From Thermoproteota archaeon (GTDB taxonomy: Archaea; Thermoproteota; Thermoprotei_A; Sulfolobales; Desulfurococcaceae), in assembly GCA_013154205.1 (NCBI GenBank), contig JAADCY010000146.1, forward strand, positions 1 through 47,831: a stretch of 47,831 bases of DNA, in the 5' to 3' direction. Below, piece by piece: positions 24,783-37,784 of the stretch (the stretch's first letter is position 1; every line of letters starts with the position of its first letter). The position numbers and the translations under genes were made by a program. The notes beneath the pieces were generated by a model. That model was given only the letters and a program-made list of their open reading frames with translations. It was not told where the DNA came from and made no database searches.

Positions 24783-24791
24783 ACATCTTAT

Positions 24792-25154
24792 ATTGAAAAC
24801 ATCGTCAGGAAGCAACTATAACAACTATACTTGAAAACATTGACAAAATCACTTATACTTGAAAACAAACAGTTCGACCACAAATATTTGAAACAAAACC
24901 CATAATCAAACACAAGAAATCGAAAACAAGTATATAGTACATATAAACCATTGAAAACACATACAAAAACAATTTAATTTGAAAACAATCGCCTAGACAG
25001 AAAGTTTTGAAAACACCCACATAACAATGTTATCTTGAAAACAAAAATATAAACATTGCTTGTTGAAAACAGGAGTCAAACCAATTTAAATTGAAAACAA
25101 ATACATAAACATTAGCGATTGAAAACAAATAGTTAAACATATCTTATTGAACCA
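24792..25154 (+). repeat. Phased iteron array: 13 copies of TTGAAAACA
   Basis: Perfect copies start at 24792, 24830, 24858, 24950, 24979, 25007, 25035, 25063, 25091 and 25119. Variants are at 24887 (TTGAAACA), 24919 (TCGAAAACA) and 25147 (TTGAACCA). Spacings are 38, 28, 29, 32, 31, 29, then 28 six times. Some spacers resemble each other (AAAATATAAACATTG versus AATACATAAACATTA). Confidence 0.9.
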
Positions 25155-25858
25155 TCCACACCATGTCCATCAAAAACATATACACAACAACCATAATCCA
25201 TCCATAAAATACATATTTTCTAATAGACAAGCCCCTCATCACAGTATTCTTTCCAATAACACTAAACAAAAACAACACCAAAACAAACCAAACAAACAAA
25301 ACACCAAACCCAAACAATTAGATATACTAAAAGAAAAACACATACAAAAACATATCATCACATCAATCATATATATTTCTCCAGTGGAAACATAGGTATT
25401 TCCATTAGAAAAACTAACCAATCATTATACAAACCATTAAAACACATATATAAACTAGGAGAAAAATATATATAGAACAAAAAGCTTAAAAACAAATGCA
25501 TACTCAAAAATAAGTGCACCAAACCAAAAAGTTAAAATAACAAACAAAATCCCGTTCTAAACACTATAAAACAAAACAATTCAAATTCATACGTATATAG
25601 AAATCAGACAATGGGATAAAAATATATACTCAACCGCTAAAATATATAGCTAAAAATTACTATTTTCGGTGGGCTCCAGTGGAAACAATGGTTAGAAATT
25701 CGAGTTCGAAACACTAACCTTAATGATATTTAATTAAAGTTAGAACCTCTGAATTTTTCCGAACATATGCACAAAAATATAAATACTTTTCGTTTGTATA
25801 AAGAATCATCACGTCCATATTTTTTATTAGAAAATTCTCCAGTGGAAACAAAGCCTGT

Positions 25859-25958
25859 AAACTCCCCGGTTACCACTATATAAACCTTACTTATAACAAT
25901 ACATCATACATTCACATGAAAACCTCCAGTGGAAACCCGGGTGTAAACCGGGGAGTTT
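25859..25958. repeat. 13-nt perfect inverted repeat AAACTCCCCGGTT / AACCGGGGAGTTT flanking ORB boxes 3 and 4
   Basis: Copies at 25859-25871 and 25946-25958. A 15/15 copy (AACTCCCCGGTTTAC) recurs at 26716-26730 inside ORF 26599..26805. Confidence 0.85.
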
Positions 25959-26095
25959 CACTCCATGAAAAACACTCAAAAAACTATAAATACCACGAAA
26001 AAAGTGCACCAAAAAACATATATAAAAGAAACCCTCCAGAACCCGAGCGAAACTATTCAGCTAATAACATATAATTATTTAAAAATAAGAATTGA

Positions 26096-26117
26096 ATGAT
26101 TGACACTTGTCAATCAT
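26096..26117. promoter_or_regulatory. Perfect palindrome ATGATTGACA-CT-TGTCAATCAT
   Basis: 10-bp arms with a 2-bp spacer, read directly. Lies 34 bp upstream of ORB box 5. Confidence 0.8.
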
Positions 26118-26477
26118 ATATAAACTTTACCCATGATGAGAGCCTACGATTTCCAGTGGAAATAGGGGTTCTTCATCTGGAAATTTAGTTAGAAAAACAA
26201 ACCAAAAACATAAATAAGAGCGATCCAAGAAAAACTTTTAAACCATAAAATTCAACCTAAAAATATTGACATCAAGGAAACCAAAACACCATCCTAAAAA
26301 CATAACAAGAACGGAGTAATACTCCGGAAAAATTAGAGATTCTAACTTCGAAAAACTTAAAAATAGATTTCAGAGATGCTGACAAAGAATTGAAACTAGG
26401 GGTATTTAAATCCGATTTCTGCCATGGAAAACCTCATCGAAAAAAACAAATATCCCCTTATATACTTTTGCCAACCT

Positions 26478-26513
26478 AAAAATGTTGAAAACTCGGTGGG
26501 ATTCAACATTTTT
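26478..26513. other. 12-bp perfect-stem hairpin AAAAATGTTGAA-N12-TTCAACATTTTT
   Basis: Read directly. It sits where plus-strand composition flips from A/C-rich to G/T-rich. Confidence 0.8.
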
Positions 26514-26598
26514 ATCTAGAAAATTTGACCCACTTTCACCGTGTTCTATATAATATATATAGGAAAAGGTGAAAAAGTCGGCTAAATTTATCATTACA

Positions 26599-26805
26599 AT
26601 GAATGCGATAGTGTATTTTGTCTTTTTGTTTTTGAACCTGTTATGTCTAGTACTGTCTTTATTCTGTGCTTGTTTTTGTACAGTTTTTCTTGGTGTTTCC
26701 GATGGGGTTTTTGGTAACTCCCCGGTTTACGATGAGGTTGTACTACGATATTACACTGTAAATGTACATGAAATTTATTTAAAGTGCTATGATGATTCTT
26801 CATAG
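26599..26805 (+). CDS. Small Cys-rich membrane protein
   Basis: Track ORF 26569..26805. I prefer ATG 26599, about 40 nt after the TATATAATATATATA box. TM segment VYFVFLFLNLLCLVLSLFCACFCTVFL. Contains the 15-mer copy at 26716-26730. Confidence 0.45.
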   Translation: MNAIVYFVFLFLNLLCLVLSLFCACFCTVFLGVSDGVFGNSPVYDEVVLRYYTVNVHEIYLKCYDDSS

Positions 26806-26845
26806 TTATATAATACATGTATATCTATTATTAACTTGAGGGTGG

Positions 26846-27472
26846 ATGGTGGTGGCTGGTAATAAGTGGTTGTGTGTATTGTTTTCTCCGTTGAGGTGTT
26901 ATCGTTGTGGTGAAGATGGTTGCCTAGGCTGTAAGTTTATCGGTGTTGTTAAGGATGCAAGGGATGTTCTCAAGTTTATTGGTGGGTTTAAGAGTTTGAG
27001 AGACCTTGTTGTTAAGCTATGTGATTTTCTCGGTTATGGTGGTGGGAGTGTTGTTAGTGATTTGTTCTATGTTAGGCGTGGTGGTTATGCATCGTATGTT
27101 TTGTTCTATGTTCCTGAGGAAAGTAGTGATATGGTTGAGTCTGAGCTTAGGCGTAATATGGTGGCGTTGAACGGTGTTGTGGCTGGTTATCGTGTTGTTT
27201 TTAGGGGTGATGGTGTTGTATGGTATGCTGTGAAGCCGGTTGATCCTGGTGTGTTGTGGGATTTTCTATGGTTTTTGTCTGGGCTGGTTTGTCGGGTGTG
27301 GTGTGTTAGGGGTGCTGGGTTCAGTGTTGTTGGTGGTGCTCTGCACCGTGTACGCTATGTGTACACGTGGCTCAAAGACCCGTTCAGACGAGACATACCC
27401 GAAGTAGACACGCGGGACGTTAAGAAATACGTGGAGGAACTACTGCGGAGGAAGAAAACCATAATAATATAA
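26846..27472 (+). CDS. Zinc-finger protein next to the hub (candidate DNA-binding / initiator-type factor, function unknown)
   Basis: ORF track, 208 aa. N-terminal CYRCGEDGCLGC. GAGGGTGGA lies upstream of the ATG. Codon usage switches near 27340. Confidence 0.7.
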   Translation: MVVAGNKWLCVLFSPLRCYRCGEDGCLGCKFIGVVKDARDVLKFIGGFKSLRDLVVKLCDFLGYGGGSVVSDLFYVRRGGYASYVLFYVPEESSDMVESELRRNMVALNGVVAGYRVVFRGDGVVWYAVKPVDPGVLWDFLWFLSGLVCRVWCVRGAGFSVVGGALHRVRYVYTWLKDPFRRDIPEVDTRDVKKYVEELLRRKKTIII

Positions 27473-27480
27473 GAGGCGTA

Positions 27481-27951
27481 TTATTTATTCTGTTTTTCTT
27501 CGAGTTCTTTATATATTTTTACTGCGAGGGCTTCTGGCTCTGTTTTTTCCGGATCGATTATTATTTTATAGCTGTGAGCATTATGTGGCATCGCCTCTAT
27601 CACTATGTCTTTCTTTCTGAACGGTAGTTTTATTACTAGCATACCCGGTTTTAGTGTAAGGGCGTAGTAGTATCCGGGTATGAAGGACGCCTTTATTGTT
27701 GTGCCGTCCTTCTTTATGAGTTGTTTTATGAAGCGTGATAGCCATTTTCCACGTTTTGTCTTTGATGATATTATCTTGTCTATCATGTAGCTTGCTAGTA
27801 CTGGTATTGTTATTACTCCTAGTGCGGGATTTAGTATTGTTCCTAGAACGGCTATGCCGTAGCCGGCATCTAGTATGTTTGGTGCTTTAAAGCGTAGCTT
27901 CCATATCCGTATTTCTTTTTCCTTTGGTTTAACAAGTGAGATGGAAGGCAT
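27481..27951 (-). CDS. Hypothetical protein with a central hydrophobic segment
   Basis: ORF track, 156 aa. Confidence 0.65.
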   Translation of the reverse strand: MPSISLVKPKEKEIRIWKLRFKAPNILDAGYGIAVLGTILNPALGVITIPVLASYMIDKIISSKTKRGKWLSRFIKQLIKKDGTTIKASFIPGYYYALTLKPGMLVIKLPFRKKDIVIEAMPHNAHSYKIIIDPEKTEPEALAVKIYKELEEKQNK

Positions 27952-27998
27952 TATATCACCATACTATAGTTTGTTTTTGATATATATTTATAGATGAT

Positions 27999-28775
27999 TT
28001 ATCTTGGTATTAGGAGTGTGGCTTGTTTTAGCCGTGTTTTCGGTATTTTTATCTGTGTGTGGAACCAGATGTTGTGGGGTAGTCGTGGCTGGCTGGGTGG
28101 CCGTGGTTTCTGTACGGCGGTTTTTCTGGCCTGTGGTTTCATTGTTGTCTTGGTTGTTGGGCCTAGCCATACCTTGTCGTGTCCCCGCCATAGTGTTTTA
28201 CCGTTTACCGTTAGTATTATGTCTAGCTTGTTCGGGCCGGGATGGGGGCTCGGCGCTAGCTGTGCGGCGGGTATTTTGACGCGTATTGAGCCGTCCCGGA
28301 TTGTCCGGCGTGTCAGCTCTAGTGTCTTTGTTTTGCCGGTGTCGTGGTCGCGGACGTGGAGCATGATCGTTGCGGGGATGCCGGGTTTTGACTGGCTGTA
28401 CTGTAGGATTACTACTAGGCCTGTGTTGAGTGGGTAGACCCAGTAATGTATTAGTTTAGGATTGTTCTTGTTTTCTTTTGCAGTGATGTTTATCGGTATT
28501 TTTTGCGCTCCTACTTCTAGCAGGTATGCTCCGGGCTTGTTGAACGCGGCTAGGAGTGTGATTGTGCCATGGTCTCCCTGTAGGTTTATCGGTATGATGT
28601 CTCCGGGGGCTAGTGTGCCTCCGCCGAGTGATGTGCGGTACCCGGTGTTTGATATTGCTTCTATTATTCTTATTGTTGCTTCTCCGTTCTCGGGTGCTTT
28701 GAGCAATCTGATCTTGTCCTGTGTCTTTGTCCATCTCGCCCCAATCTCTATATACTGGTTTGGCGGTGCCTGCAT
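27999..28775 (-). CDS. Beta-rich hypothetical protein
   Basis: ORF track, 258 aa of natural composition. The three overlapping plus-strand ORFs (27994.., 28004.., 28462..) are G/T-skew artefacts rich in C, V, W and F. Confidence 0.7.
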   Translation of the reverse strand: MQAPPNQYIEIGARWTKTQDKIRLLKAPENGEATIRIIEAISNTGYRTSLGGGTLAPGDIIPINLQGDHGTITLLAAFNKPGAYLLEVGAQKIPINITAKENKNNPKLIHYWVYPLNTGLVVILQYSQSKPGIPATIMLHVRDHDTGKTKTLELTRRTIRDGSIRVKIPAAQLAPSPHPGPNKLDIILTVNGKTLWRGHDKVWLGPTTKTTMKPQARKTAVQKPRPPSQPRLPHNIWFHTQIKIPKTRLKQATLLIPR

Positions 28776-28888
28776 TTCTGGTCACTCGTGTTTATTCTTT
28801 TGTTTTTCTTGGTATTTATTGGTGGTTTTCTCGTCGTGTGGGTTTTTATAGTGTCCTGTATCCTTATCTATAGTATGGTGATGGATGT

Positions 28889-29071
28889 ATGTGTGCGGAG
28901 CACGTGTCCCGGCCCCTCCTCCCCGGTGGGCGTTCGGCTACTTTTCCGGCCCAGGTATGGAGGAATGGGGACAGCCTAGTAGTCACCATCAAGAAGCGTG
29001 TAGTCGAGAAGCTCGGATTGAAGCCCGGTGACAACGTCCTCATAACAATAACCGTGCTGGGTGAGCAGTGA
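28889..29071 (+). CDS. AbrB/SpoVT-like DNA-binding protein
   Basis: SLVVTIKKRVVEKLGLKPGDNVLITI is a canonical AbrB/MazE-type swapped hairpin. TTTTTATAG box upstream. Confidence 0.7.
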   Translation: MCAEHVSRPLLPGGRSATFPAQVWRNGDSLVVTIKKRVVEKLGLKPGDNVLITITVLGEQ

Positions 29072-29394
29072 TGATGAACACTTACCGTGTAGAGGAGATC
29101 TATCTCGTGAACCGTGAGAAGCACAAGGTTAAGGCCCAGTTCTGGAGGAACAGCAACGGGCGCCTGATAAGGGCGTTTATCTTCACCGACTACGAGGGCG
29201 AGACAGGGGACAGGATAGTGAAGGCACACGTGGTCGTAGCCGTCTCCGACCTAGTAGCCTCCGCGAGCATCGACATGGAGCGCTGGAGGCCCGGCGGCAC
29301 CACCCACGTCAAGAAACATGTGGAAGCCTCAAGCATAGCGAGGACAAGCCCCCAGAAAATCCACGACATGATCAAAAAATCAAGAGGAGGTTGA
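29068..29394 (+). CDS. Hypothetical protein coupled to the AbrB-like gene
   Basis: ORF track, 108 aa. 4-nt overlap with the upstream gene. Confidence 0.6.
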   Translation: MMMNTYRVEEIYLVNREKHKVKAQFWRNSNGRLIRAFIFTDYEGETGDRIVKAHVVVAVSDLVASASIDMERWRPGGTTHVKKHVEASSIARTSPQKIHDMIKKSRGG

Positions 29395-29400
29395 GAAGTA

Positions 29401-29583
29401 ATGGTTAGGGTCGAGGTTGATCTTAGGCTCGTTGTTGATGTTGATGAGGAGACAGCGAAGCTACTAATGATATTGCCGGCGTTTGACAGGGACTCGCTTG
29501 CACAGATAGTGTCGAAGCTGATCGCTATACAGAAGGCACAGATTGGGATACAGGTGAAGAAGCATAAGGAGGCTGGTAAGTGA
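29401..29583 (+). CDS. RHH-like small protein
   Basis: VRVEVDLRLVVDVDEETAKLLMIL...LAQIVSKLIAIQ resembles the C-terminus of 9929..10882. Confidence 0.5.
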   Translation: MVRVEVDLRLVVDVDEETAKLLMILPAFDRDSLAQIVSKLIAIQKAQIGIQVKKHKEAGK

Positions 29584-29804
29584 TGAATAAAGTTATTATC
29601 GAGCTTCATGTCGAACCATCGGGACATAAGGTAATAGATGAGTTACGGAGCATGGCATTCCAGTTTAATGAAGGTAATATTAGCGAGTATGATGTACTAG
29701 ATTATCTTAAACAAATGATTCATACTGATAGGATTATTCTCTGGGAACTGAATATCAAGGAATCAAGGAGGCTGGTAAGTGATGGGGTGGAAGAAGGGCA
29801 GTAA
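29580..29804 (+). CDS. Small hypothetical protein
   Basis: ORF track, 74 aa. Shares a 20-nt junction repeat with the preceding gene, read in a different frame. Confidence 0.5.
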   Translation: MMNKVIIELHVEPSGHKVIDELRSMAFQFNEGNISEYDVLDYLKQMIHTDRIILWELNIKESRRLVSDGVEEGQ

Positions 29805-29967
29805 GGCTGGCAGGTGTAGGGAGTGTTGGTACTATGTCGGCCTACGTAGCGGCGGCCCCTACTGCCGCAAGCACCACAAGAAGATATCGCCGTACATGGA
29901 GCGTTGCCACGATTATCTACCCGTATGGCTACACTACGGCAGAAAACCAAAGATGACCATGGGGTGA
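29779..29967 (+). CDS. Small Cys/His-rich basic protein
   Basis: ORF track, 62 aa: CRECWYY...CRKHH...CHD. Confidence 0.5.
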   Translation: MMGWKKGSKAGRCRECWYYVGLRSGGPYCRKHHKKISPYMERCHDYLPVWLHYGRKPKMTMG

Positions 29968-29974
29968 ACAAGTA

Positions 29975-30241
29975 GTGTATGGTAGTGTTCTTGAGCCTGT
30001 ACTATTGTTTAACAAGATGCTTATGGAGCTAAAGGAAGAATATGAACGACTGAGATGTCCTATTGAGAGATATTGTCCTTATTGTGAGGAGGACTGCCTA
30101 GGCAACTACGAGTACTGCCCGATATACGTTAGGTGTCGGGATGCCGAAATCGTTGTCAGATGCATATTTGAGGCAGTGCCTATAACATGGCGTGACATCC
30201 CTTCTCTCATCAATAGATTCCTAGAGGGGGCGAGCAATTAA
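29975..30241 (+). CDS. Cys-rich small protein
   Basis: ORF track, 88 aa: CPIERYCPYCEEDCLGNYEYCPIYVRC. Confidence 0.55.
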   Translation: MYGSVLEPVLLFNKMLMELKEEYERLRCPIERYCPYCEEDCLGNYEYCPIYVRCRDAEIVVRCIFEAVPITWRDIPSLINRFLEGASN

Positions 30242-30594
30242 TGGTTGATATGTCTATGGTTGTATGGCATAGTAGGGTTGAAACCACGGGTTTCATGGCG
30301 TGGGGCCTCCATAGATATGGCTTGTATGACAAGGAGAGGGTGCTTGAGTTCCAGAAGACAGTGTGGACTTACCACTATGAAATATACACTGAGCATGTCG
30401 ATAACTATGATGTGGCTAACGAGGCAATAGTGTCGTTAATGATGCGGTACATGTATGGTCTGCCACATCCCGACGACTATGGCGTGTATCCTGATAAGTA
30501 TATGGTGTTGGAGCTGTGTTGTAATCCGTGGTATTATTACTGGTGGATGTACGACGAGATACTAGACCCAATATTCAGTAGTAGGAGGCGATAA
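30241..30594 (+). CDS. Hypothetical protein (W/Y-rich)
   Basis: ORF track, 117 aa. TAATG coupling with the upstream gene. Confidence 0.6.
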   Translation: MVDMSMVVWHSRVETTGFMAWGLHRYGLYDKERVLEFQKTVWTYHYEIYTEHVDNYDVANEAIVSLMMRYMYGLPHPDDYGVYPDKYMVLELCCNPWYYYWWMYDEILDPIFSSRRR

Positions 30595-30597
30595 AAC

Positions 30598-30945
30598 ATG
30601 GTGCTGGATAGGTTTGAGGCTGTTCTTTCGTTTGACGAGTTTGTCCGTGTGTGGGAGAGGATTTTGAGGCGGAGCCTCGTGATTGTTAGTAGTTGTCGTG
30701 ATGTGGAGGATAAGGATGTATTGGTGGGTAAGAAGGTTGAATGCACATATACTATTATGGTGGCGTGGGCACGGAGCGTGTTTGGACAAGTGTTTGGCCG
30801 TGAGCCTGTTACTGTGAAGTATGTTGTTACAAGCTATAATGGTGGGCTCGGCGATACCGTTAGCTTCACGGTGGTTGGTGGTTTCCGTGGGGTTAGGGCT
30901 GTGAAGAAGATCATCGGGGAGGTACTGGGGGAGGTGAATGATTGA
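30598..30945 (+). CDS. Hypothetical protein
   Basis: ORF track, 115 aa. Confidence 0.6.
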   Translation: MVLDRFEAVLSFDEFVRVWERILRRSLVIVSSCRDVEDKDVLVGKKVECTYTIMVAWARSVFGQVFGREPVTVKYVVTSYNGGLGDTVSFTVVGGFRGVRAVKKIIGEVLGEVND

Positions 30946-31103
30946 TGCCTTGGAGTGTTCTTGATCGTGAGCTTGAGTTGTTGGGGCGTCGTAAGCGGAT
31001 AGAGGAGGTCTGCGGCGACCATGGGATGGCTGAGTGGTATGAGCGACGTATCGAGAGGCTAAGGCGGGAGAAGGAACGACTGGAAAGAATGAGGAGGTGG
31101 TGA
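30945..31103 (+). CDS. Small helical R/E-rich protein, 52 aa (below track cutoff)
   Basis: My own translation: MPWSVLDRELELLGRRKRIEEVCGDHGMAEWYERRIERLRREKERLERMRRW. TGATG coupling with the upstream gene. Confidence 0.45.
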   Translation: MPWSVLDRELELLGRRKRIEEVCGDHGMAEWYERRIERLRREKERLERMRRW

Positions 31104-31118
31104 AGGGTGGTACGGATT

Positions 31119-31241
31119 ATGGATAAAAAATGTTATGATGAGTGTATGTCGAAATGTTTTCTTGATATGGATGAATGTATCAAGACATGTACAGAGCAGT
31201 GTGAGATACTAGCAGAGACACGTATAGGAGGTGCTAGGTGA
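31119..31241 (+). CDS. CX3C-repeat mini-protein, 40 aa (below track cutoff)
   Basis: My own translation: MDKKCYDECMSKCFLDMDECIKTCTEQCEILAETRIGGAR. An alternative GTG start lies at 31107. The stop overlaps the next start. Confidence 0.4.
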   Translation: MDKKCYDECMSKCFLDMDECIKTCTEQCEILAETRIGGAR

Positions 31242-31552
31242 TGCGGTTTATTCATCCTAGGGTTATAGACTATATATTTGGTGAGGGAAGCTGTGGTCTT
31301 GTTGCTACTATGAGGAATTATCGGTATAGAGTGGGGCATAGTATCCGTGTAAGGGTTGGGAATAAGGTGTTTTGTGGTAATGTTCTTGCTGTTGTTGATA
31401 ATACTAGGGAGAACGCGGAGAAGTATGTGGAGTATAGTGGTTTTAACAGTGTTGATGAGTGGCTTGGCGAGGCTATTAGATTGCATCATGGTAGGAGGCC
31501 GAAGTATATTGTCTTGGTAAAGCTCTGGGACTGCGGGACAAATAAGAGGTGA
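31238..31552 (+). CDS. Hypothetical protein (weak ASCH/PUA-like resemblance)
   Basis: ORF track, 104 aa. Pattern RVGHSIRVRVGNKVF...AEKYVEYSGFNSVDEWL...YIVLVKL. The family call is tentative. Confidence 0.55.
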   Translation: MMRFIHPRVIDYIFGEGSCGLVATMRNYRYRVGHSIRVRVGNKVFCGNVLAVVDNTRENAEKYVEYSGFNSVDEWLGEAIRLHHGRRPKYIVLVKLWDCGTNKR

Positions 31553-31559
31553 CTGGACT

Positions 31560-32087
31560 GTGGTTGAGAAGGGTTTCTGGGATAAGTGGGAGAAAGCCGG
31601 TGAGCATGAGAAAATGGAGCTTGCAAGGCATGTGGCTGAACGAATAATGGAAACATGTAGTGCTATGAGTAATAGCTATAATAAATGGATACATTGTATT
31701 GCGTCACTGATTAAGATCTATCTAGATAGTTATCGCGCATACATGGTCGAGATACTGCCCGGCACAAGCGATTACCGTGTAATTGATCTATGTGATTGTA
31801 GCCTTGACGACGATATGCCGGAGCATGAGAAGCTCAACAAACTACTTAACATGGTTACAGCTTTTGTCCATGAAAACTATGGTGTGTGGCTAATACCTCA
31901 TGAGCCGAAAAAGATAGGCAGGGGTATATATTTGTGCAGATTCGGCGTGAAGAACAATCCCAGGATGTGTTTTGACCACTACACCTACGAGGTACACCTG
32001 TACTATGATGGGAAATGCCCATGTATTAAGGTAATTATTGATAATATAAACGAAGTAATACCACATATTAATAACGGTGAAGAGTAA
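31560..32087 (+). CDS. Hypothetical protein
   Basis: ORF track, 175 aa. Confidence 0.65.
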   Translation: MVEKGFWDKWEKAGEHEKMELARHVAERIMETCSAMSNSYNKWIHCIASLIKIYLDSYRAYMVEILPGTSDYRVIDLCDCSLDDDMPEHEKLNKLLNMVTAFVHENYGVWLIPHEPKKIGRGIYLCRFGVKNNPRMCFDHYTYEVHLYYDGKCPCIKVIIDNINEVIPHINNGEE

Positions 32088-32680
32088 TGCCTGATATGGG
32101 TTTTCTCCGGGTTCTTGAGGACTTGGAGCAGTACGGGTTCTATCCATGGGGAGGGACGGAGACCATGCATAAGGACACGTTATTATTGCTTCAGAAGAGG
32201 CCGTGGCAGTTCCAGTGGCATACAAATATGCCGGTCATCCGTCTCGATGAGAGGCTGACACGTGATGATAGGTTGAAATCGACGGTTACGGATACATATT
32301 TCGTGGAGCCAGACCCCGAGCTGATGGGGTACCACTATCCCAAGTTCTATGTACGCTTACTGGGTGTTAGGCCGTGGGCGTTCTACAACGATATGCTGGA
32401 CGATCTAGGCTATATATTGGAGGAGGAACCACCATACTATGAGACATGGATACATGAGGAGGGCGAACCTAGTGCTGAGGAGGAAGAGCAGGATGCGATC
32501 CAGCGCCACCAGAGGCTTCTAGACGAGCTTGTGGGGAAGCTGAGAGAGATAGGAGTTAAGATATACTGTGAAGAGATCGATGAAAACGAGGACTATATTG
32601 ACTGCTACATAGTGTACCGTGGTGAAGAGTTCTCGATAACCGATGAAATAATAGACGAGTTCCAAGAAGGTGAACAATAA
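32087..32680 (+). CDS. Acidic hypothetical protein
   Basis: ORF track, 197 aa. TAATG coupling on both sides. Confidence 0.7.
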   Translation: MPDMGFLRVLEDLEQYGFYPWGGTETMHKDTLLLLQKRPWQFQWHTNMPVIRLDERLTRDDRLKSTVTDTYFVEPDPELMGYHYPKFYVRLLGVRPWAFYNDMLDDLGYILEEEPPYYETWIHEEGEPSAEEEEQDAIQRHQRLLDELVGKLREIGVKIYCEEIDENEDYIDCYIVYRGEEFSITDEIIDEFQEGEQ

Positions 32681-33465
32681 TGCCTCGTACCAGGGTTGAT
32701 TATGCTACTGATCAGATAACGGTCTACCGGTACTGTTCATACGGGTGCAGATACTGTTATGTCTGGCGCAACAAGCTGTTTGCGGGCCGGGTTATGCGTG
32801 GCAAGTACGACCCAGTCGAGGAGGCTAGAAGGTATCTCGGGAAGACCGGTAGGACAATAGTTGTATCCTTTGTCAGCGACCCCTATCCGCCCGAGGAGGA
32901 CAAGAAGAGGCTTACACGTAGAGTATTGGAGATACTGTGTAGGAGCAGGAACAGGGTCATGGTACTGACAAAGAACCCGGTGCTCGCCCTGAGAGACCTA
33001 GACGTTATGGGGCAGGGTGACTGCTGGCTCGGCACAACGGTCATCACTACTCATCCATGGTGGCACCGTGTACTGGAGCCCCGGGCACCCCCGCCCCTTA
33101 ACCGTTTGCTAGCCCTCTTTAGGGCTAGGGAGAAAGGCATCCATACATGGCTGAGCATCGAGCCAATAATACCCCGTGTCACAGACCTAGACGTGATAGC
33201 ACATCTTGCCGTGGAGCTCGGCATAGACTATGTCGTGCTGGGACGCTACAACTACTGGAAACACATCAGCCTACCCGAAGCCCAGTACCTACGCATAACC
33301 GAGGGCGGCCACGAATTCCTATGGCTTGACGCAAACCCTACATCTGAGGAAGAACTAGTACAGTGGTACCGGGAACACGTACCAAAAACAATAGATTTCC
33401 TCAAAGAACACGGGGTCAAATACCATATAAAGAAAGAACTAGCCAAGGTGCTGAATAATGCCTAG
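32680..33465 (+). CDS. Radical-SAM enzyme (subfamily unresolved; short N-terminal-cluster type)
   Basis: CSYGCRYCY at residues 19-27 is the CX3CX2C 4Fe-4S/SAM motif. 261 aa. VVSFVSDPYPP and VLTKNP follow as expected for the beta strands of a partial TIM barrel. Confidence 0.8.
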   Translation: MPRTRVDYATDQITVYRYCSYGCRYCYVWRNKLFAGRVMRGKYDPVEEARRYLGKTGRTIVVSFVSDPYPPEEDKKRLTRRVLEILCRSRNRVMVLTKNPVLALRDLDVMGQGDCWLGTTVITTHPWWHRVLEPRAPPPLNRLLALFRAREKGIHTWLSIEPIIPRVTDLDVIAHLAVELGIDYVVLGRYNYWKHISLPEAQYLRITEGGHEFLWLDANPTSEEELVQWYREHVPKTIDFLKEHGVKYHIKKELAKVLNNA

Positions 33466-33793
33466 GGTTTTTGTTGTTTTTAATGATTGGGAGCGGGTGG
33501 ATGAGATGAGGGTTTATAGTGTTGGGTGGCTTGGTGCCCGGGTTTTCCTGGAGTCTAGGTATCGCTACCATCCGGTTCTCCTGCCTTCTTGTCTTAGGGT
33601 TGTTAGTGAGGTAATAATTAGTTTTGAGGATGAATCGGACAGGGATGCCGAGCATGTAAGGAGAATGATGTGGGTTTTGAAGCATGTATATCATAGTCTT
33701 AGACAGCGGCATTGGGACACAAGCAGAAAATACGTCGAGCTAATAGAGAGTGGAACACTAAAACAATTCCTCAAGGCGATAAACAATGTATGA
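33458..33793 (+). CDS. Hypothetical protein
   Basis: ORF track, 111 aa. 8-nt overlap with the upstream gene. Confidence 0.6.
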   Translation: MPRVFVVFNDWERVDEMRVYSVGWLGARVFLESRYRYHPVLLPSCLRVVSEVIISFEDESDRDAEHVRRMMWVLKHVYHSLRQRHWDTSRKYVELIESGTLKQFLKAINNV

Positions 33794-33989
33794 ACACGTA
33801 AGACTTGTTAGAAACGGACAGCTAGTACTTCGACGTCTTGTCGAGAAAATAGTTAGACATTATGATTACTGCGGGGTTTTCTTGAACGAAGATACTGCAG
33901 TGCAGATACTGGTGGAAAAGGGAGAGGAGGCCCTTGATGCTGTCTGTACTATTATTGATACTATGATTAAGTATAGGGGTGATAGGTAA
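33786..33989 (+). CDS. Hypothetical protein
   Basis: ORF track, 67 aa. 8-nt overlap with the upstream gene. Confidence 0.55.
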   Translation: MYEHVRLVRNGQLVLRRLVEKIVRHYDYCGVFLNEDTAVQILVEKGEEALDAVCTIIDTMIKYRGDR

Positions 33990-34390
33990 TGGTGTATCTC
34001 TACCGGTTGGCGTGGATCTGGTATGATGATTATGAGCCATATGTACTGGTGCATGAGAAGCAGTTCACCGAGAATGAGTGGCTAGGTATGGTTAGGAAGG
34101 CTATGAGCAAGGCTGTGGACGAGCTTCTCCAGGGAGATGCAAGTATTGGTGGTATTGAGATCGTTGAGAAGACCGTTGAGAAGTTGTGTGAGCTGTACGG
34201 TTTTAGAAAGGCTATGTATGTGGGCGACCTGGAGATTGTTGTGCCGATGCTTATAGATCGGTGGTGTCTGCGGGATGAGGTGGTTAGACGGCTTGCTCGG
34301 TTTATCGGGGAGGAAAGGTTCAGGCGGATCATAGAGCACAACCAAACCATAATCCAGGGATTTTTCGTCGGGAGAGATATGGATGGGTGA
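33989..34390 (+). CDS. Hypothetical protein
   Basis: ORF track, 133 aa. TAATG coupling with the upstream gene. Confidence 0.65.
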   Translation: MVYLYRLAWIWYDDYEPYVLVHEKQFTENEWLGMVRKAMSKAVDELLQGDASIGGIEIVEKTVEKLCELYGFRKAMYVGDLEIVVPMLIDRWCLRDEVVRRLARFIGEERFRRIIEHNQTIIQGFFVGRDMDG

Positions 34391-34444
34391 TTCCTTTTCT
34401 TTAAATATTTTCTCTAGACATAATACTAGGAATAGGGGAAAAGA

Positions 34445-35032
34445 ATGAGCTTCAAGGAGAAAATACTTAGGAAAATAATGGAGCATGTAGACAAGTATCT
34501 CGCCAACTACGACTATAACTATGTGGTGGTAACCGATTATGCTATGATACGTACTGGTTTTCTCATCCTCTACGGGATACTGGGCTTCATAGTATTTAGC
34601 ACAGCCTATAACGAGACATTAGGTGGCCAGGTATTCCTCTACAGCCTCGTAGGAATAGCGATATACATGGTTATCAGTGGCCACATATATGATTTGGAGA
34701 AAGCAAAGGCTAAGCAGAGGATCCGTGAGCTGGGTAGGCGGGTGGCTGAGGAGATAGTTGATAAGGCATACTACTATCTGTACAATGCACTGTATAAGGC
34801 CTTGGAATCTATTGATAAGGATACTCTCCAGAGGCTACAGCGACTCCTCTACGAGCGTGGCGAGATCATGAGGACTATGGATCGTGTGAGCGGGAAGTGC
34901 CGTAAAGCTCTGAGGCGTCAGCTCCACGAGATAGAGCGGGAGATACAGGAGACTATAGAGAAAGCCGTACAGGATAAGCGTCTTGATACTAGGGTATTGG
35001 TTAGGTTGGTAGAGGAGGTGCTCGGATATTGA
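34445..35032 (+). CDS. Membrane-anchored coiled-coil protein
   Basis: ORF track, 195 aa with two TM helices and then an R/E-rich helical region. Confidence 0.7.
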   Translation: MSFKEKILRKIMEHVDKYLANYDYNYVVVTDYAMIRTGFLILYGILGFIVFSTAYNETLGGQVFLYSLVGIAIYMVISGHIYDLEKAKAKQRIRELGRRVAEEIVDKAYYYLYNALYKALESIDKDTLQRLQRLLYERGEIMRTMDRVSGKCRKALRRQLHEIEREIQETIEKAVQDKRLDTRVLVRLVEEVLGY

Positions 35033-35268
35033 CAGATCATGACCCCGAGCTCGAAGAACTATATCGGCTAACCAGGCACTACTGCGGTGTAAACGATAAA
35101 ACAGTGCGGCAGATTGCTAGGGCTATACGTGAAGGCATACTACCCCCACTAACCGGCGTAGTAATGCTCACACTACTAGCATTCCACAAGATAATGTGCA
35201 ACGACATACTAGCCCGTATCAACCAGCTACGGCACTACGAGGAACAAAGCAACTACTGGGGCGAATAA
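35029..35268 (+). CDS. Small protein ending in S-N-Y-W-G-E
   Basis: ORF track, 79 aa with a hydrophobic segment LTGVVMLTLLAF. Its end is followed by a TAAGATG junction. Confidence 0.6.
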   Translation: MTDHDPELEELYRLTRHYCGVNDKTVRQIARAIREGILPPLTGVVMLTLLAFHKIMCNDILARINQLRHYEEQSNYWGE

Positions 35269-35269
35269 G

Positions 35270-35560
35270 ATGAATAGGCACAAGCTCTGCGTCATAGCAG
35301 GGATTACCCTGTTTTGTTTCAGCATCACCATGTATTTCTACTTATACCACTTATACCACAATGTATACCTGTGTGATGCATGCCTCTATACATGTGGGGG
35401 CTGTGATTTTAATGATTATACACCACCAATATGTAAAGTATATGCAGTACTGATGTTCATGCTTGTTCTAATGCTCCCCGTAGGCATAGCATTGATACCA
35501 AACATGAAGAAGGAGAAGGAAAACCGATGTGAAGATTATAGTGATTACTGGGGTGAGTAA
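35270..35560 (+). CDS. Small membrane protein ending in S-D-Y-W-G-E
   Basis: ORF track, 96 aa with two TM helices. Same C-terminal peptide and TAAGATG junction as the preceding gene. Confidence 0.6.
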   Translation: MNRHKLCVIAGITLFCFSITMYFYLYHLYHNVYLCDACLYTCGGCDFNDYTPPICKVYAVLMFMLVLMLPVGIALIPNMKKEKENRCEDYSDYWGE

Positions 35561-35561
35561 G

Positions 35562-36071
35562 ATGGAGGAGCCTGTTTGTAGTGAGGATAGGTTGTTTGAT
35601 GAGAAGGTTATCCGGTTGATCGAGGATACTCACTGGGTCAGAGTGGATCGGGGTAGTATTAGGCGGCGTTACAAGCTTCGTCCCACTAATATCGAGGTAG
35701 ACGTGATGTTCATGGCCCGTACAAACGGTAATGGGGTGCCCCGTATATTCATCTTGGAGCTTAAAGAGAGTGATCTGGACAAGGTGCTACGCCAAGCAGT
35801 GATCCGTAGCCGGTACGCCCATTACACCTACACAGTCATAGATTTCAGCCCAGAATATATCGTGGACTATATTATACGGTACTGGGAGACCCACGCCAAG
35901 AAACTAGCCCAGTACGGCGTAGGGATAATCTCCTACCGGAAACCATGCGACCACTATGATCCAGACTACGGCAAGACAGAGCCAGTACTCGTCAGAAAGG
36001 CCAAGTACCACAACATATACGGGTTCAGCCGCTACCCAGTAGCCAGGCACCCGGTGAAACCCTATGCCTAG
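35562..36071 (+). CDS. PD-(D/E)xK nuclease-fold candidate
   Basis: Track ORF 35529..36071. I prefer ATG 35562 (TAAGATG junction). Putative catalytic pattern EVDVMF...IFILELKESD (D...E-x-K). Confidence 0.55.
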   Translation: MEEPVCSEDRLFDEKVIRLIEDTHWVRVDRGSIRRRYKLRPTNIEVDVMFMARTNGNGVPRIFILELKESDLDKVLRQAVIRSRYAHYTYTVIDFSPEYIVDYIIRYWETHAKKLAQYGVGIISYRKPCDHYDPDYGKTEPVLVRKAKYHNIYGFSRYPVARHPVKPYA

Positions 36072-36501
36072 ATGTATCCTCAGCCTCAGAGGAAACATTG
36101 AGACATGGGCTAGGCGGTTGCTGGACAAGGTGTTCTACAAGGGCTTCACCGACGAGCTCCACGCTGTCTGTCATGGCCCATATCATCCTTGTCAGATAAT
36201 CCGTGGCGACCGATTTGTTGAGCGGATAGAATGTTATCGTCATAATGACTACTGGAACAGCTACCCAGGCGGAGCCATGCATATAAGGATAGACGTATCA
36301 CGGTTCTGCCTCGACTGTGGCATGATAAACAGGATATACCTGCGGCGGGATGGATGCATAGTGTTCAGTCACGACCAGCATGGCTACGAAGGAGTCCACG
36401 TACTAGTACCCAAGAAGTCCCAGCGAGAATACCTAGCCCAAAAACTAGCAGAAACACTCACAAATAAACAAGTATGGAAAACAAAACACTATACTATATA
36501 G
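36064..36501 (+). CDS. Cys/His-rich hypothetical protein
   Basis: ORF track, 145 aa: CHGPYHPC, CYRH, CLDCG. Confidence 0.65.
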   Translation: MPRCILSLRGNIETWARRLLDKVFYKGFTDELHAVCHGPYHPCQIIRGDRFVERIECYRHNDYWNSYPGGAMHIRIDVSRFCLDCGMINRIYLRRDGCIVFSHDQHGYEGVHVLVPKKSQREYLAQKLAETLTNKQVWKTKHYTI

Positions 36502-36525
36502 ATTCCTAGACATGTATATAGAAAA

Positions 36526-36569
36526 GCTTTTTATAGTTTCTAGATATATACCTAGAATAGGTGAAAAAC
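36526..36569 (+). promoter_or_regulatory. Promoter/operator cassette copy B (GCTTTTTATAG plus TTCTAG-N8-CTAGAA dyad plus GGTGAAAAAC)
   Basis: CTTTTTATAG-TTTCTAGATATATACCTAGAATAGGTGAAAAAC. Matches the reverse complement of 10871..10903 at 30 of 33 positions. Confidence 0.6.
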
Positions 36570-36863
36570 ATGGACAAGGCCGAGAAAAACAGAACCAGAC
36601 ACCCAAAACTCACCGAAACAATAATTCATAGCATAATACTATCAATTCTTTCCTATATATTCTCGTATTTTACCGCAATAATAAGATTCGAAGACTATCC
36701 ACAATTAACATCAATAATGAACCATATAATAAGCCCAATATTTCTATTACTAACATATATATTCGCTGGCACAACAATAATATTTTCATTAATACTATTA
36801 GTGAAGAAGATAAGACTAAGATATTCAAAAACCCATTCTATAAAACATGACGATGAAAAATAA
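36561..36863 (+). CDS. Small membrane protein
   Basis: ORF track, GTG start inside the conserved cassette (ATG alternative at 36570). Two TM helices. Confidence 0.6.
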   Translation: MKNMDKAEKNRTRHPKLTETIIHSIILSILSYIFSYFTAIIRFEDYPQLTSIMNHIISPIFLLLTYIFAGTTIIFSLILLVKKIRLRYSKTHSIKHDDEK

Positions 36864-36953
36864 ATAAAATCATGATCCTACCCATTATTTTCTAGTCTAG
36901 TCATAGTTATATAGCATAGTTATGGTATAATAGATCATAGGAGATGAGACGCT

Positions 36954-37718
36954 GTGCTCTTAAGCAAGAAGAAACAAGACAATCCGCTACTAGGGCTGTT
37001 CAAGCAAAAGATAAAACAGGCATTCACAAACATAGTGCTCCCAAAATACATCGAGGAACCACTATACAGCCAGAAAATACTATCACTACTCGACTTCATC
37101 CAGCGTGCTTCAAAGAACATATGGCTCGTAACACAGAGCCCACAGTACCTCCCCTACCAGTGGAAAATATACTTTGCACAGCTAAGAGAAAACCTGCCAT
37201 ACAAGTATGCAGTAGTGGTATTTGTCAAAAACAATAACATGACAATACCCCTAGTCCGCATAAGCTTCACGAAAAAACTATCCAAAGCACTAGACACACT
37301 AAGAATGAATGTATCATCAATAAAGGACGATATAGAAGAATATGTGTCTGACCAAGCCGATGAAACTGCTCTAAAACGGGTAGAAAAAATAATGCAGACA
37401 CCCGAGTATCAGCAAGCACTATCAATTCTGGCAGGACTACTAGGCGTAGAGCCGGAGAAACTAAAAGACCCGATAAACTACTCGCTAAAACACAGCCTGG
37501 CCGAAGAACTAGCCAAGGAATACCGTGTGAAGATGCAGAACGACATAGAACAATATAGGGCGCTAGAGGAAAAACTAGTAGACATAAAGGACAAGGCGGA
37601 GCAAGAGGAAGAAATAATTAACGAGATGAAGCAACAGGGCAAAACTGTGAAGCCAAAAATATTCGTGGAGAACATTGCATCCGAGCTGGGCTTCACCAGA
37701 ATAGAACGGTTCATGTAA
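36954..37718 (+). CDS. Hypothetical protein with C-terminal coiled coil
   Basis: ORF track, 254 aa, GTG start. Contains an internal CCAGTGGAAA at 37157-37166. Confidence 0.7.
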   Translation: MLLSKKKQDNPLLGLFKQKIKQAFTNIVLPKYIEEPLYSQKILSLLDFIQRASKNIWLVTQSPQYLPYQWKIYFAQLRENLPYKYAVVVFVKNNNMTIPLVRISFTKKLSKALDTLRMNVSSIKDDIEEYVSDQADETALKRVEKIMQTPEYQQALSILAGLLGVEPEKLKDPINYSLKHSLAEELAKEYRVKMQNDIEQYRALEEKLVDIKDKAEQEEEIINEMKQQGKTVKPKIFVENIASELGFTRIERFM

Positions 37719-37784
37719 CTATAGTTTTTCACCTTTTCTAGTCATCATCCTAGTTATAAACCATTCCCAGCCCTTATACTATAG

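What the first reader, a model, noticed from the sequence alone, without database searches (positions are those of the whole stretch)
26846..36071. Codon-dialect switches inside single ORFs (patchwork of G/T-ending and A/C-ending synonymous usage)
Several intact ORFs change synonymous-codon style abruptly part-way through.
- 26846..27472 uses AAG, GAT, GTT, GGT, TTG and AGG up to about 27335. Its last 45 or so codons are GAC, ATA, GAA, AAA and CTA.
- The radical-SAM gene uses AAG, GAG, AGG, GTT and TTG before about 33050. After about 33130 it uses AAA, GAA, CTA, ATA and CCA.
- 35562..36071 switches near 35780.
- 1877..2833 switches the other way near 2230.
- 6076..6999 changes near 6725.
- 40323..41741 flips near 41050-41100. 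That point is also a domain boundary, so this case is weaker.

Lys and Glu codon choice (AAG/GAG versus AAA/GAA) flips too, so amino-acid composition alone does not explain the pattern.

One possible cause is homologous recombination between lineages carrying the same genes under opposite strand-mutation pressure, for example opposite orientation relative to an origin. Another is local differences in which strand is exposed as ssDNA at high temperature (C-to-T and A-to-G deamination). Either way the element is a fine-scale mosaic with breakpoints inside genes.
Basis: partly seen in the sequence, partly recalled or inferred. Interest (0 to 1): 0.65.

Follow-up and report, generated by a model that had tools for sequence, protein, structure and literature searches.

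The report
Patchy G+T/A+C strand bias rewrites codons
In this roughly 50-kb virus- or plasmid-like element from a deep-sea vent archaeon, one DNA strand is strongly G+T-rich and the other A+C-rich, and the polarity flips every few hundred to few thousand bases, often inside genes, so a single gene can switch codon "dialect"; this is real and unusually extreme, and it looks like a mutation bias kept up in place rather than recombination.

Summary
The change survives shuffles that keep the protein, the codon family and the 3' neighbour base fixed (p<=0.0045). Extremes are K3 0.88->0.38 (26852-27472) and about 0.85->0.15 (40323-41690).

The cause acts on the DNA, not on translation:
- G/(G+A) and T/(T+C) at third positions move together (r=0.74). 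K3 is unrelated to GC3.
- Codon positions 1-2, amino-acid content and non-coding DNA shift the same way.
- The A/C-ending dialect read on the template strand has the same composition and neighbour dependence as the G/T-ending dialect read on the coding strand.
- Gene orientation predicts nothing (r=0.03).
- A two-domain polarity predicts about 30% of the variance. It flips at an iteron-bearing AT-rich region (about 25-26.6 kb, a probable origin) and at about 7 kb.
- 23 of 37 patch borders lie inside genes, no nearer to gene ends than chance.

Recombination is not supported where it can be tested. The only syntenic relative keeps the same K3 profile at near-saturated, uniform synonymous divergence. 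The radical-SAM shift is family-wide (54 of 61 homologues).

Best reading: a strand-biased transition pressure maintained in place. What sets the small patches is unresolved.

The parts
26852..27343 (+). 5' 164 codons of a 206-aa ORFan in the extreme G/T-ending dialect (K3 0.88; T3 .58, G3 .30, A3 .06, C3 .06; K at codon positions 1 and 2 is .72 and .70, giving a Val/Gly/Phe/Leu/Trp/Cys-rich protein)
27344..27472 (+). Last roughly 43 codons of the same ORF; abrupt change to K3 0.37-0.38 within about 10 codons
27481..28775 (-). Two minus-strand genes in the A/C-ending dialect (K3 .22-.26). They lie in the same + strand G+T-rich domain as the preceding + gene. 27999-28775 is a real gene, with a 48%-identical full-length homologue (P0175)
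32680..33465 (+). Radical-SAM gene. K3 is 0.54-0.57 up to about 33130-33153, then 0.26-0.27. The same direction of shift is seen across the family
33458..33793 (+). 111-aa ORF. K3 is 0.84 for about 85 codons, then 0.37 (switch at 33710-33716)
35529..36071 (+). 180-aa ORF. K3 is 0.74-0.76 up to 35784-35787, then 0.28. This point begins the 3.5-kb + strand A+C-rich block
35789..39298 (+). 3.5-kb low-GC block of reversed polarity (K3(+) 0.31) within a mostly + strand G+T-rich region. Its right edge lies inside the catalytic domain of the serine resolvase gene (39083-39694)
40323..41690 (-). 455-aa surface/coiled-coil protein gene. The first roughly 215 codons have K3 of about 0.85-0.9, then a mixed zone, then the last roughly 135 codons at about 0.15. 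Chromosomal homologues have K3 of about 0.33 throughout and no K-run
1877..2833 (+). 318-aa ORF that switches the other way (K3 0.45 -> 0.72 at 2225-2228)
6076..6999 (-). 307-aa ORF spanning the large-scale polarity flip (K3(+) 0.65 -> 0.42 at 6686-6693), where cumulative skew has a local maximum; terminus-like
44762..46198 (+). 478-aa P-loop protein gene. K3 0.73 -> 0.46 at 45593
18493..18990 (-). Val/Thr-rich 165-aa ORF with K3 0.90. Its homologue in the syntenic relative L010 also has the highest K3 of that region (0.79), at 47% amino-acid identity
46731..47456 (-). 241-aa secreted-looking protein gene in the most extreme A/C-ending dialect (K3 0.13)
24783..26851 (.). 2.07-kb AT-rich non-coding region (GC 0.30) holding the main polarity switch at about 26.6 kb (+ strand A+C-rich to the left, G+T-rich to the right) and the global minimum of cumulative GC skew. 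Candidate replication origin
24793..25127 (+). Ten same-strand copies of TTGAAAACA at spacings that are mostly 28 nt or multiples of it (seven consecutive copies exactly 28 nt apart); iteron-like array
25379..26163 (+). Five dispersed same-strand copies of CTCCAGTGGAAAC (four exact)

Best explanation
**What it is.** The window is most of a roughly 50-kb virus- or plasmid-like element of a hyperthermophilic archaeon from a deep-sea vent chimney. In every stretch, one DNA strand is G+T-rich (third-position sites about T .45, G .35, C .13, A .07) and its partner is A+C-rich. A gene's 'codon dialect' simply reports which strand of the local patch it is written on. Where the polarity or strength changes inside a gene, the dialect changes in mid-ORF.

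**Most likely cause.** A strand-biased transition pressure (C->T and A->G on one strand). This is the expected signature when one strand is more often single-stranded and deaminates at very high temperature. The pressure acts in place and is maintained over evolutionary time. Purifying selection damps it at codon positions 1-2.

**Three layers are visible.**
1. Large polarity domains that ignore gene orientation. They flip at an iteron-bearing AT-rich non-coding region (about 25-26.6 kb, a probable replication origin) and at about 6.7-7 kb. This resembles replication-associated skew.
2. A tendency for the 5' part of a gene to be richer in G/T-ending codons than the 3' part. This is also seen in related elements and in host genes. 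It is compatible with promoter-proximal exposure of the non-template strand.
3. Sub-kb to 3.5-kb patches of 'wrong' polarity, whose determinant is unknown.

**Shown:**
- the asymmetry itself and the reverse-complement relation of the two dialects;
- its independence from gene strand;
- its reach into non-coding DNA and into protein composition;
- its conservation in a relative.

**Inferred:**
- deamination of single-stranded DNA as the chemistry;
- replication and transcription as the agents that expose the strands;
- the origin assignment.
For: **The bias is on the keto/amino axis, not the GC axis.**
- Across 38 third-position segments, G/(G+A) and T/(T+C) correlate at +0.74. The third-position G/T fraction (K3) correlates with GC3 at only 0.09, with K at position 1 at 0.76 and with K at position 2 at 0.66.

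**The two dialects are reverse complements.**
- G/T-dialect third positions on the coding strand: A.09 C.12 G.37 T.43.
- A/C-dialect third positions read on the template strand: A.06 C.15 G.32 T.47.
- Both show the same 3'-neighbour dependence, although the neighbour is a different codon position in each case.

**The bias reaches beyond synonymous sites.**
- Non-coding G+T content tracks flanking K3 (r=0.53).
- Protein composition follows. Where the homologue P0175 has R/G/A/V/S, the A/C-dialect gene has K/N/T/I/Q. The G/T-dialect N-terminal domain shows I>V, A>V, T>V, S>G and K>R relative to host homologues.

**Polarity ignores genes.**
- Gene strand predicts K3(+) with r=0.03. A two-domain model (origin 25-26.5 kb, terminus about 7 kb) gives r=0.51.
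- K3 is 0.577 in the 54 genes co-oriented with that putative replication and 0.346 in the 17 head-on genes.
- The switch region carries iteron-like repeats and the minimum of cumulative skew.
- Patch borders are blind to genes: 23 of 37 are intragenic, and 13 lie near gene edges against 10.1 expected.

**The pressure is maintained in place.**
- In the syntenic relative L010, per-gene K3 follows the window (.90/.79.67/.61.41/.50 and so on).
- After controlling for amino acid, residual K3 in 40-codon windows correlates at r=.55 (p<2e-4). Without the extreme gene it is r=.35 (p=.005).
- This holds although 4-fold sites are only 42% identical against 27% expected by chance, and synonymous identity is uniform along the 9 kb.

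**The 5'->3' layer.**
- Radical-SAM K3 is higher in the N-terminal part in 54 of 61 homologues.
- First-half K3 exceeds second-half K3 in 11 of 12 host-chromosome genes and in 7 of 9 genes of locus L012.
- In L033, 6 of 8 significant switches go from G/T-rich to A/C-rich in the 5'->3' direction, on both strands.

**It recurs elsewhere.**
- L033, another vent contig, has the same patchiness (sd of G+T content .097) and two domains of opposite polarity whatever the gene strand.
Against: - No polarised substitutions were available, so C->T and A->G are inferred from composition only.
- The two-domain model explains only about 26-30% of the variance. The 37 borders are far too many for origins and termini.
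- Some borders are very sharp (27343, 33715). Stochastic exposure of single-stranded DNA does not obviously predict that.
- The 5'->3' decline is not significant across all window genes (+0.019, p=0.28), and 6 of the 17 significant switches run the other way.
- The N-terminal G/T-run of 40323-41690 has the polarity opposite to its surroundings.
- GC content varies from 0.25 to 0.60, and the reversed blocks are low-GC. This would also suit foreign origin.
- The topology of the element is unknown: the contig continues 1.9 kb beyond the window, and that extension shows no similarity to any part of the window, so it is not a repeat of the window's start.
Confidence: 0.55

Rival explanations
1. Recombination mosaic. 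Gene segments were imported by homologous recombination or module exchange from relatives whose copies evolved under the opposite or a different strand bias, and have not yet adjusted to their new setting.
For: - GC content is heterogeneous (0.25-0.60). The reversed-polarity block 35.8-39.3 kb is a distinct low-GC block next to a serine recombinase gene.
- Relatives with uniformly different dialects exist (L008 and L004 are G/T-rich, L007 is A-rich).
- Some borders are step-like.
- The N-terminal part of 40323-41690 carries a dialect opposite both to its host homologues and to its local domain.
Against: - Both radical-SAM halves have the same nearest neighbours, and its shift is family-wide.
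- The syntenic relative keeps the same third-position G/T profile (K3), with uniform, near-saturated synonymous divergence and no recent-exchange tracts. Unmaintained patches would have decayed by then.
- Borders are not enriched at gene or module edges.
- Two dialects of one gene would share too little nucleotide identity for homologous recombination (inference).
- No protein among nine tested has a relative at >=90% identity that could serve as a donor.
Confidence: 0.2
2. The bias acts in place, but through a different chemistry or enzyme. Candidates are patchy synthesis by an error-prone polymerase that favours G.T mispairs (which enriches G+T on the newly made strand), a skewed dNTP pool, or a host or viral DNA deaminase acting on single-stranded intermediates.
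For: The DNA-level evidence is the same as for the best explanation: the two dialects are reverse complements, and the bias reaches all codon positions and non-coding DNA. Strand-coordinated clusters are typical of enzymatic editing (established knowledge of APOBEC and RIP).
Against: - There is no 5'-neighbour preference. T/(T+C) is .75-.82 for all four 5' bases, and the only context effect is a general 3' purine/pyrimidine effect that is also present in unskewed segments.
- No deaminase or polymerase domain turned up in the roughly 40 window proteins scanned against Pfam or PHROGs.
- Third positions are much more extreme than positions 1-2, which implies slow accumulation under selection rather than bursts.
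Confidence: 0.12
3. Selection on synonymous sites. G/T-ending codons (read by wobble or by C34 tRNAs) versus A/C-ending codons (Watson-Crick to G34/U34 tRNAs) would be used to tune translation speed or mRNA structure along genes.
For: The 5'->3' decline in the third-position G/T fraction (K3) is conserved across 54 of 61 radical-SAM homologues and in 11 of 12 host genes. Stretches made only of G+U or only of A+C cannot form Watson-Crick hairpins with themselves (inference).
Against: - The A/C dialect is the reverse complement of the G/T dialect, including its neighbour context.
- Non-coding DNA and positions 1-2 shift as well.
- Dialect follows DNA domain, not gene strand.
- Host homologues of a gene that looks highly expressed prefer C-ending codons, not G/T-ending ones.
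Confidence: 0.08
4. Artefact of assembly, amplification or DNA damage.
For: The sequence is a single metagenomic contig seen in one sample.
Against: - ORFs run intact across the borders and align to homologues over their full length.
- The skew depends on codon position.
- Independent samples carry relatives with the same profile (L010 from ENA, L011 from Logan, L033 from JGI).
Confidence: 0.02

Closest known systems
Replication-associated strand asymmetry that shapes codon usage (bacterial leading strands richer in G+T; Borrelia burgdorferi genes using G/T-ending or A/C-ending codons according to strand) - from my own knowledge of Lobry 1996, McInerney 1998 and Lafay 1999
   Same: The same axis is involved (G+T against A+C). 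The effect is strongest at third positions and spills into amino-acid usage. Polarity is independent of transcription direction. The main flip sits at an AT-rich, repeat-bearing non-coding region. 54 of 71 genes are co-oriented with the inferred fork direction.
   Different: The amplitude is far larger (third-position G/T fraction, K3, from 0.1 to 0.9). There are at least 7 large polarity domains and 37 third-position borders in 48 kb, instead of two replichores. Two thirds of the borders fall inside genes. The two-domain model explains only about 30% of the variance.
Heavy/light-strand asymmetry of vertebrate mitochondrial DNA, attributed to deamination of the strand displaced during replication - from my own knowledge
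   Same: One strand is G+T-rich and the other A+C-rich, with comparable third-position extremes. The composition is consistent with both C->T and A->G on the exposed strand.
   Different: In mitochondrial DNA one polarity holds for the whole genome, with a smooth gradient. Here polarity alternates in patches and no monotonic gradient from the putative origin is seen. On the A+C-rich strand the rarest base is T rather than G.
Transcription-associated mutational asymmetry and 5'-end strand bias of genes (excess G+T on the non-template strand; R-loop-linked skew at gene starts; PMC3787257 and PMC3315797 turned up)
   Same: Gene 5' parts tend to be richer in G/T-ending codons than 3' parts, in this family of elements and in host genes. 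Several G/T-runs start at gene starts that follow intergenic spacers (26852, 35529, 41690).
   Different: Gene orientation does not predict polarity in the window (r=0.03). Whole genes sit in the A/C dialect. Borders are not enriched at gene starts.
Mosaic genomes of phages and archaeal viruses produced by recombination
   Same: Composition is patchy, GC content is heterogeneous, and the genome is rich in ORFans.
   Different: Where tested, there is no phylogenetic incongruence and there are no steps in synonymous divergence. Borders ignore gene and module edges. The patch profile is shared with a diverged syntenic relative.

Membership tests
Replication-associated strand compositional skew | Polarity independent of gene orientation | tested here: met
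   Gene strand predicts + strand third-position G/T fraction with r=0.03, against 0.51 for domain sign. Genes on both strands share the domain polarity at 26.6-28.9 kb and at 6.7-26.6 kb.
Replication-associated strand compositional skew | Sign change at the replication origin (and terminus) | tested here: inconclusive
   The main flip and the cumulative-skew minimum lie in an AT-rich 2-kb non-coding region with iteron-like repeats. No initiator gene was identified and no experimental origin is known. The topology of the element is unknown.
Replication-associated strand compositional skew | Only two polarity domains per replicon | tested here: not met
   16 all-position segments and 38 third-position segments. 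Within-gene variance is 3 times the binomial expectation.
Deamination skew of single-stranded DNA (mitochondrial type) | Coupled enrichment of G over A and T over C on the same strand | tested here: met
   r=+0.74 between G/(G+A) and T/(T+C) at third positions. G+T-rich strand composition is T .43-.47, G .32-.37, C .12-.15, A .06-.09.
Deamination skew of single-stranded DNA (mitochondrial type) | Directional C->T and A->G substitutions on the exposed strand | not testable with these tools
   This needs polymorphisms polarised by a close outgroup or read data. No relative at >=90% identity exists in the collections. Only amino-acid replacement directions are available, and they agree.
Deamination skew of single-stranded DNA (mitochondrial type) | Smooth gradient with time spent single-stranded | tested here: not met
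   The + strand third-position G/T fraction alternates .88/.38/.78/.43/.62/.78/.57/.26/.84 and so on with distance from 26.6 kb.
Transcription-associated strand asymmetry | Non-template (coding) strand is the G+T-rich one | tested here: not met
   The third-position G/T fraction on the coding strand spans 0.13-0.90. The strand coefficient in the regression is -0.04.
Transcription-associated strand asymmetry | Bias strongest near the 5' end of the transcription unit | tested here: inconclusive
   Across all window genes the first-half excess is +0.019 (p=0.28), although 11 of the 17 significant switches go from G/T-rich to A/C-rich 5'->3'. The effect is clear in L012, L033, host locus L005 and 54 of 61 radical-SAM genes.
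Recombinational mosaic genes | Different phylogenetic neighbours on the two sides of a breakpoint | tested here: not met
   For the radical-SAM protein, P0002 and P0003 are nearest for both halves. This could be tested for one gene only.
Recombinational mosaic genes | Steps in synonymous divergence along alignments with relatives | tested here: not met
Synonymous identity is mostly 0.4-0.65 in 50-codon blocks (four blocks at 0.20-0.22, one at 0.77) and never high enough to mark a recent exchange, along 9 kb against L010.
Enzymatic hypermutation (APOBEC/ADAR/RIP-like) | Sequence-context preference of the edited base | tested here: not met
   T/(T+C) is .75-.82 and G/(G+A) is .73-.91 for all 5' neighbours. 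The 3' effect equals that in unskewed segments.

The most novel reading that the evidence does not exclude
The patches may be self-sustaining, gene-blind domains of strand-specific damage. Once a stretch becomes G-rich on one strand, that strand is preferentially left single-stranded, for example in R-loops formed by pervasive transcription in either direction, or in replication or recombination intermediates. It therefore keeps deaminating at around 90-100 C. Polarity would then be bistable, borders would be sharp, and the map would be inherited across species, rewriting codons and amino acids in sub-gene blocks. That would be a kind of sequence-encoded 'mutational memory' not described for any genome.
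Probability: 0.2. Interest if true: 0.85.

Novelty: new variant of a known kind. Interest (0 to 1): 0.6.

Why it matters
- If the patches are maintained in place, this element shows how far a strand-specific mutation bias can push real genes. Third positions reach about 90% G/T or about 90% A/C, and proteins are driven towards Val/Gly/Phe or towards Lys/Asn/Thr/Pro.
- It also shows that such a bias can be organised on a sub-gene scale.
- The element offers a natural read-out of which strand is exposed where in a hyperthermophile replicon, and a candidate origin that could be tested.
- It is a warning for gene finders, for codon-usage-based host prediction and for recombination detection in viruses from hot environments. 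Compositional 'breakpoints' there need not be recombination breakpoints.

Tried and rejected
**Searches that found nothing**
- The phage collection by megablast, for 26-37 kb.
- IMG/VR with three proteins.
- GTDB genomes with the helicase.
- No tRNA genes and no Rfam families.
- Two contig look-ups failed because the start codons I guessed differ from the called genes.
- Literature searches found no description of such patchy keto skew in archaeal viruses.

**Ideas rejected or downgraded**
- Sense transcription as the general driver: gene strand r=0.03.
- A universal 5'->3' sawtooth in the window: not significant overall.
- Borders at gene edges or promoters: no enrichment.
- Inversions as the cause of intragenic borders: the radical-SAM gene, the resolvase gene and the 455-aa protein gene are contiguous homologues across their borders.
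- The contig's extra 1.9 kb being a terminal repeat that would indicate a circular genome: it shows no similarity to the window.
- A/C-dialect ORFs being spurious: 27999-28775 has a full-length homologue.
- Amino-acid or neighbour-base effects explaining the switches: they survive shuffles that control for context.
- Internal paralogues in opposite dialects: none found.

Full report
**Terms.** K3 is the fraction of third codon positions that are G or T. K(+) and K3(+) are the same measure read on the + strand. 'K' means G+T-rich and 'M' means A+C-rich. A 'dialect' is a stretch of a gene with extreme K3.

**Source and setting.** The window is the first 47,831 nt of JGI contig Ga0072504_101672 (49,767 nt) from metagenome 3300005095. 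That metagenome comes from a deep-sea hydrothermal sulfide chimney (PMC7329443). The element looks like an archaeal virus or plasmid.
- Most ORFs have no known relatives.
- Recognisable genes are an SF2 helicase, a Cas4-like nuclease, an AAA ATPase, an RHH protein, a radical-SAM protein, a serine resolvase and a D12 methyltransferase with a PSV_ORF131-like N-terminus.
- One gene (40323-41690) has chromosomal homologues next to PaREP1 genes, which points to a Thermoproteales-like host (the host assignment is my inference).
- Nine proteins have no relative at >=90% identity among 15 billion sequences.

- I scored each synonymous codon as ending in G/T (K) or A/C (M), then searched for the best change point. 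I compared it with shuffles of synonymous codons within the gene.
Several more do too (33458-33793, 39083-39694, 44762-46198).
- The K3 strings make the switch visible. 26852-27472 is nearly all K for 163 codons and then M. 40323-41690 is K for about 215 codons, mixed for about 105, then M for about 135.
- A stricter shuffle that also fixes the codon family and the next base leaves all nine at p<=0.0045.
- Lys/Glu/Gln choice flips as claimed.
- Controls are much flatter. The sd of gene K3 is 0.18 here, against 0.04-0.07 in a rudivirus-like contig and two host-chromosome loci. The sd of G+T content in 300-nt windows is 0.099, against 0.03-0.07 in those loci.

**What kind of signal is it?** It is a property of the DNA duplex, not of translation.
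- Overall the window has G+T = 0.4996, but 300-nt windows range from 0.26 to 0.78.
- Across 38 third-position segments, G/(G+A) and T/(T+C) rise and fall together (r=0.74). K3 is unrelated to GC3 (r=0.09). Positions 1 and 2 follow K3 (r=0.76 and 0.66).
- Non-coding stretches carry the polarity of their neighbours (r=0.53).
- The decisive test is the reverse-complement one. Third positions of M-dialect codons, read on the template strand, have composition A.06 C.15 G.32 T.47. Third positions of K-dialect codons on the coding strand have A.09 C.12 G.37 T.43. Both show the same dependence on the 3' neighbour, although that neighbour is a different codon position in the two cases. There is no 5'-context signature of the kind left by APOBEC-like or methyl-CpG deamination.
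- Proteins are dragged along. The K-run ORF is Val/Gly/Phe/Leu/Trp/Cys-rich. The M-dialect gene 27999-28775 is real, with a 48%-identical full-length homologue. It has K/N/T/I/Q where that homologue has R/G/A/V/S. The K-dialect N-terminal domain of 40323-41690 shows I>V, A>V, T>V, S>G and K>R relative to host homologues, whose K3 is about 0.33 with no run.

**What sets the polarity?**
- Gene orientation does not (r=0.03). A two-domain model does in part (r=0.51, R2 about 0.26-0.30). The best-fitting flips are at 25-26.5 kb and about 7 kb.
- K3 is 0.577 in the 54 genes co-oriented with divergent replication from that point and 0.346 in the 17 head-on genes.
- The flip at about 26.6 kb lies in a 2-kb AT-rich non-coding region. 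That region contains ten same-strand TTGAAAACA copies on a 28-nt lattice, five copies of CTCCAGTGGAAAC, and the global minimum of cumulative GC skew. I read it as a probable replication origin; this is an inference.
- The switch inside 6076-6999 coincides with the opposite large-scale flip.
- Most of the variance lies at a finer scale. Within-gene variance is three times binomial. 23 of 37 borders are intragenic, and borders are no closer to gene starts or ends than chance (13 against 10.1 expected, p=0.18).

**Recombination or a pressure acting in place?** Three tests were possible.
1. *Radical-SAM gene.* Both halves have the same nearest relatives. The N>C drop in K3 is present in every lineage I fetched and in 54 of 61 homologues from a metagenome scan (p=4e-10, median drop 0.10). 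The window's drop of 0.26 is in the upper tail.
2. *The one syntenic relative.* L010/L011 has a helicase 69% identical to the window's, and 13 genes are collinear with window 10.9-19.7 kb.
   - It has the same K3 profile gene by gene.
   - In 40-codon windows, after removing amino-acid effects, r=0.55, or 0.35 without the extreme gene.
   - Yet 4-fold sites are 42% identical against 27% expected, so only about 21% are unchanged by descent.
   - Synonymous identity is flat along the 9 kb.
   - A frozen ancestral patch would have decayed by now, so the profile must be maintained.
3. *A second contig.* L033, from another vent sample, shows equal patchiness. It has K(+) and M(+) domains that ignore gene strand, and 8 of 22 genes have intragenic switches.

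Against this stand the heterogeneous GC content, the low-GC reversed block at 35.8-39.3 kb and some step-like borders. All of these would also suit import of foreign DNA.

**A third layer.**
- In L012, L003/L004, the host locus L005 (11 of 12 genes), L033 (6 of 8 significant switches, on both strands) and the radical-SAM family, the 5' part of a gene is richer in G/T-ending codons than the 3' part.
- In the window this is weak overall (+0.019, p=0.28).
- It is compatible with promoter-proximal exposure of the non-template strand, added to the domain polarity. It could also reflect selection.

**Verdict.**
- The best-supported reading is a strand-biased transition pressure of the deamination type, maintained in place. 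It has a replication-like domain component, a gene-5' component and unexplained patches.
- The recombination reading fails every test I could run, but it is not excluded for the low-GC blocks.
- The phenomenon belongs to a known kind (strand compositional asymmetry shaping codon usage). Its amplitude and its sub-gene, alternating organisation are, as far as I can find, undescribed.

Noticed in passing
window 24761-25160: An iteron-like array: ten exact same-strand copies of TTGAAAACA whose spacings are mostly 28 nt or multiples of it, separated by variable 19-nt spacers. The repeat is too short for CRISPR. It lies in a 2-kb AT-rich non-coding region at the minimum of cumulative skew.
   Followed up: partly
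window 25379-26163 (also 8240-8252 and 314-326 on the minus strand): Five same-strand copies of CTCCAGTGGAAAC (four exact), plus a palindrome at 25917-25960. These are possible binding sites for an initiator or a regulator.
   Followed up: partly
window 10868-10947 and 36494-36572: An 80-nt inverted repeat (83% identical). Each copy covers the upstream region and start of a gene (9929-10882 on the minus strand and 36570-36863 on the plus strand). Both copies lie in low-GC blocks, which suggests a shared promoter or a duplicated module.
   Followed up: no
radical-SAM homologues in L002-L004, L007, L008, L012 and 61 JGI loci: The third-position G/T fraction is higher in the first roughly 57% of the gene than in the rest in 54 of 61 homologues. 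The drop begins near the conserved WLSIEPIIP motif. The cause is unknown.
   Followed up: partly
L033 (Ga0190363_1000335) 1-19148: A second vent contig with the same kind of extreme patchy skew (GC skew +0.75 with AT skew -0.52 at 1-400). Its + strand is G+T-rich over about 1-6 kb and A+C-rich over about 7-19 kb, whatever the gene strand. The third-position G/T fraction of its genes ranges from 0.08 to 0.74.
   Followed up: partly
window 40323-41690; L005 and L006 10001-11329: The element carries a copy of a host chromosomal gene for a signal-peptide plus coiled-coil surface protein (47-49% identity). The host copies sit in a conserved neighbourhood with PaREP1 and an ABC transporter, which suggests capture from the host.
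   Followed up: partly
window 13576-13624; L010 about 6600-6660: A run of 17 consecutive G/T-ending codons across GDIIIVVGKKKEREMPDG, which is also nearly all G/T-ending in the relative. It may mark a conserved nucleotide-level element.
   Followed up: no
contig 47832-49767 (L009 1-1936): The JGI contig continues beyond the window with a glycosyltransferase gene. The extension is not a repeat of the window's start, so the element's ends and topology remain unknown.
   Followed up: yes
window 14567-14884, 17439-17681, 18493-18990: Three small proteins rich in Val-Thr motifs (VTVTVT, YVT.., VTR..). They are conserved in the relative L010 and may be structural proteins.
   Followed up: no
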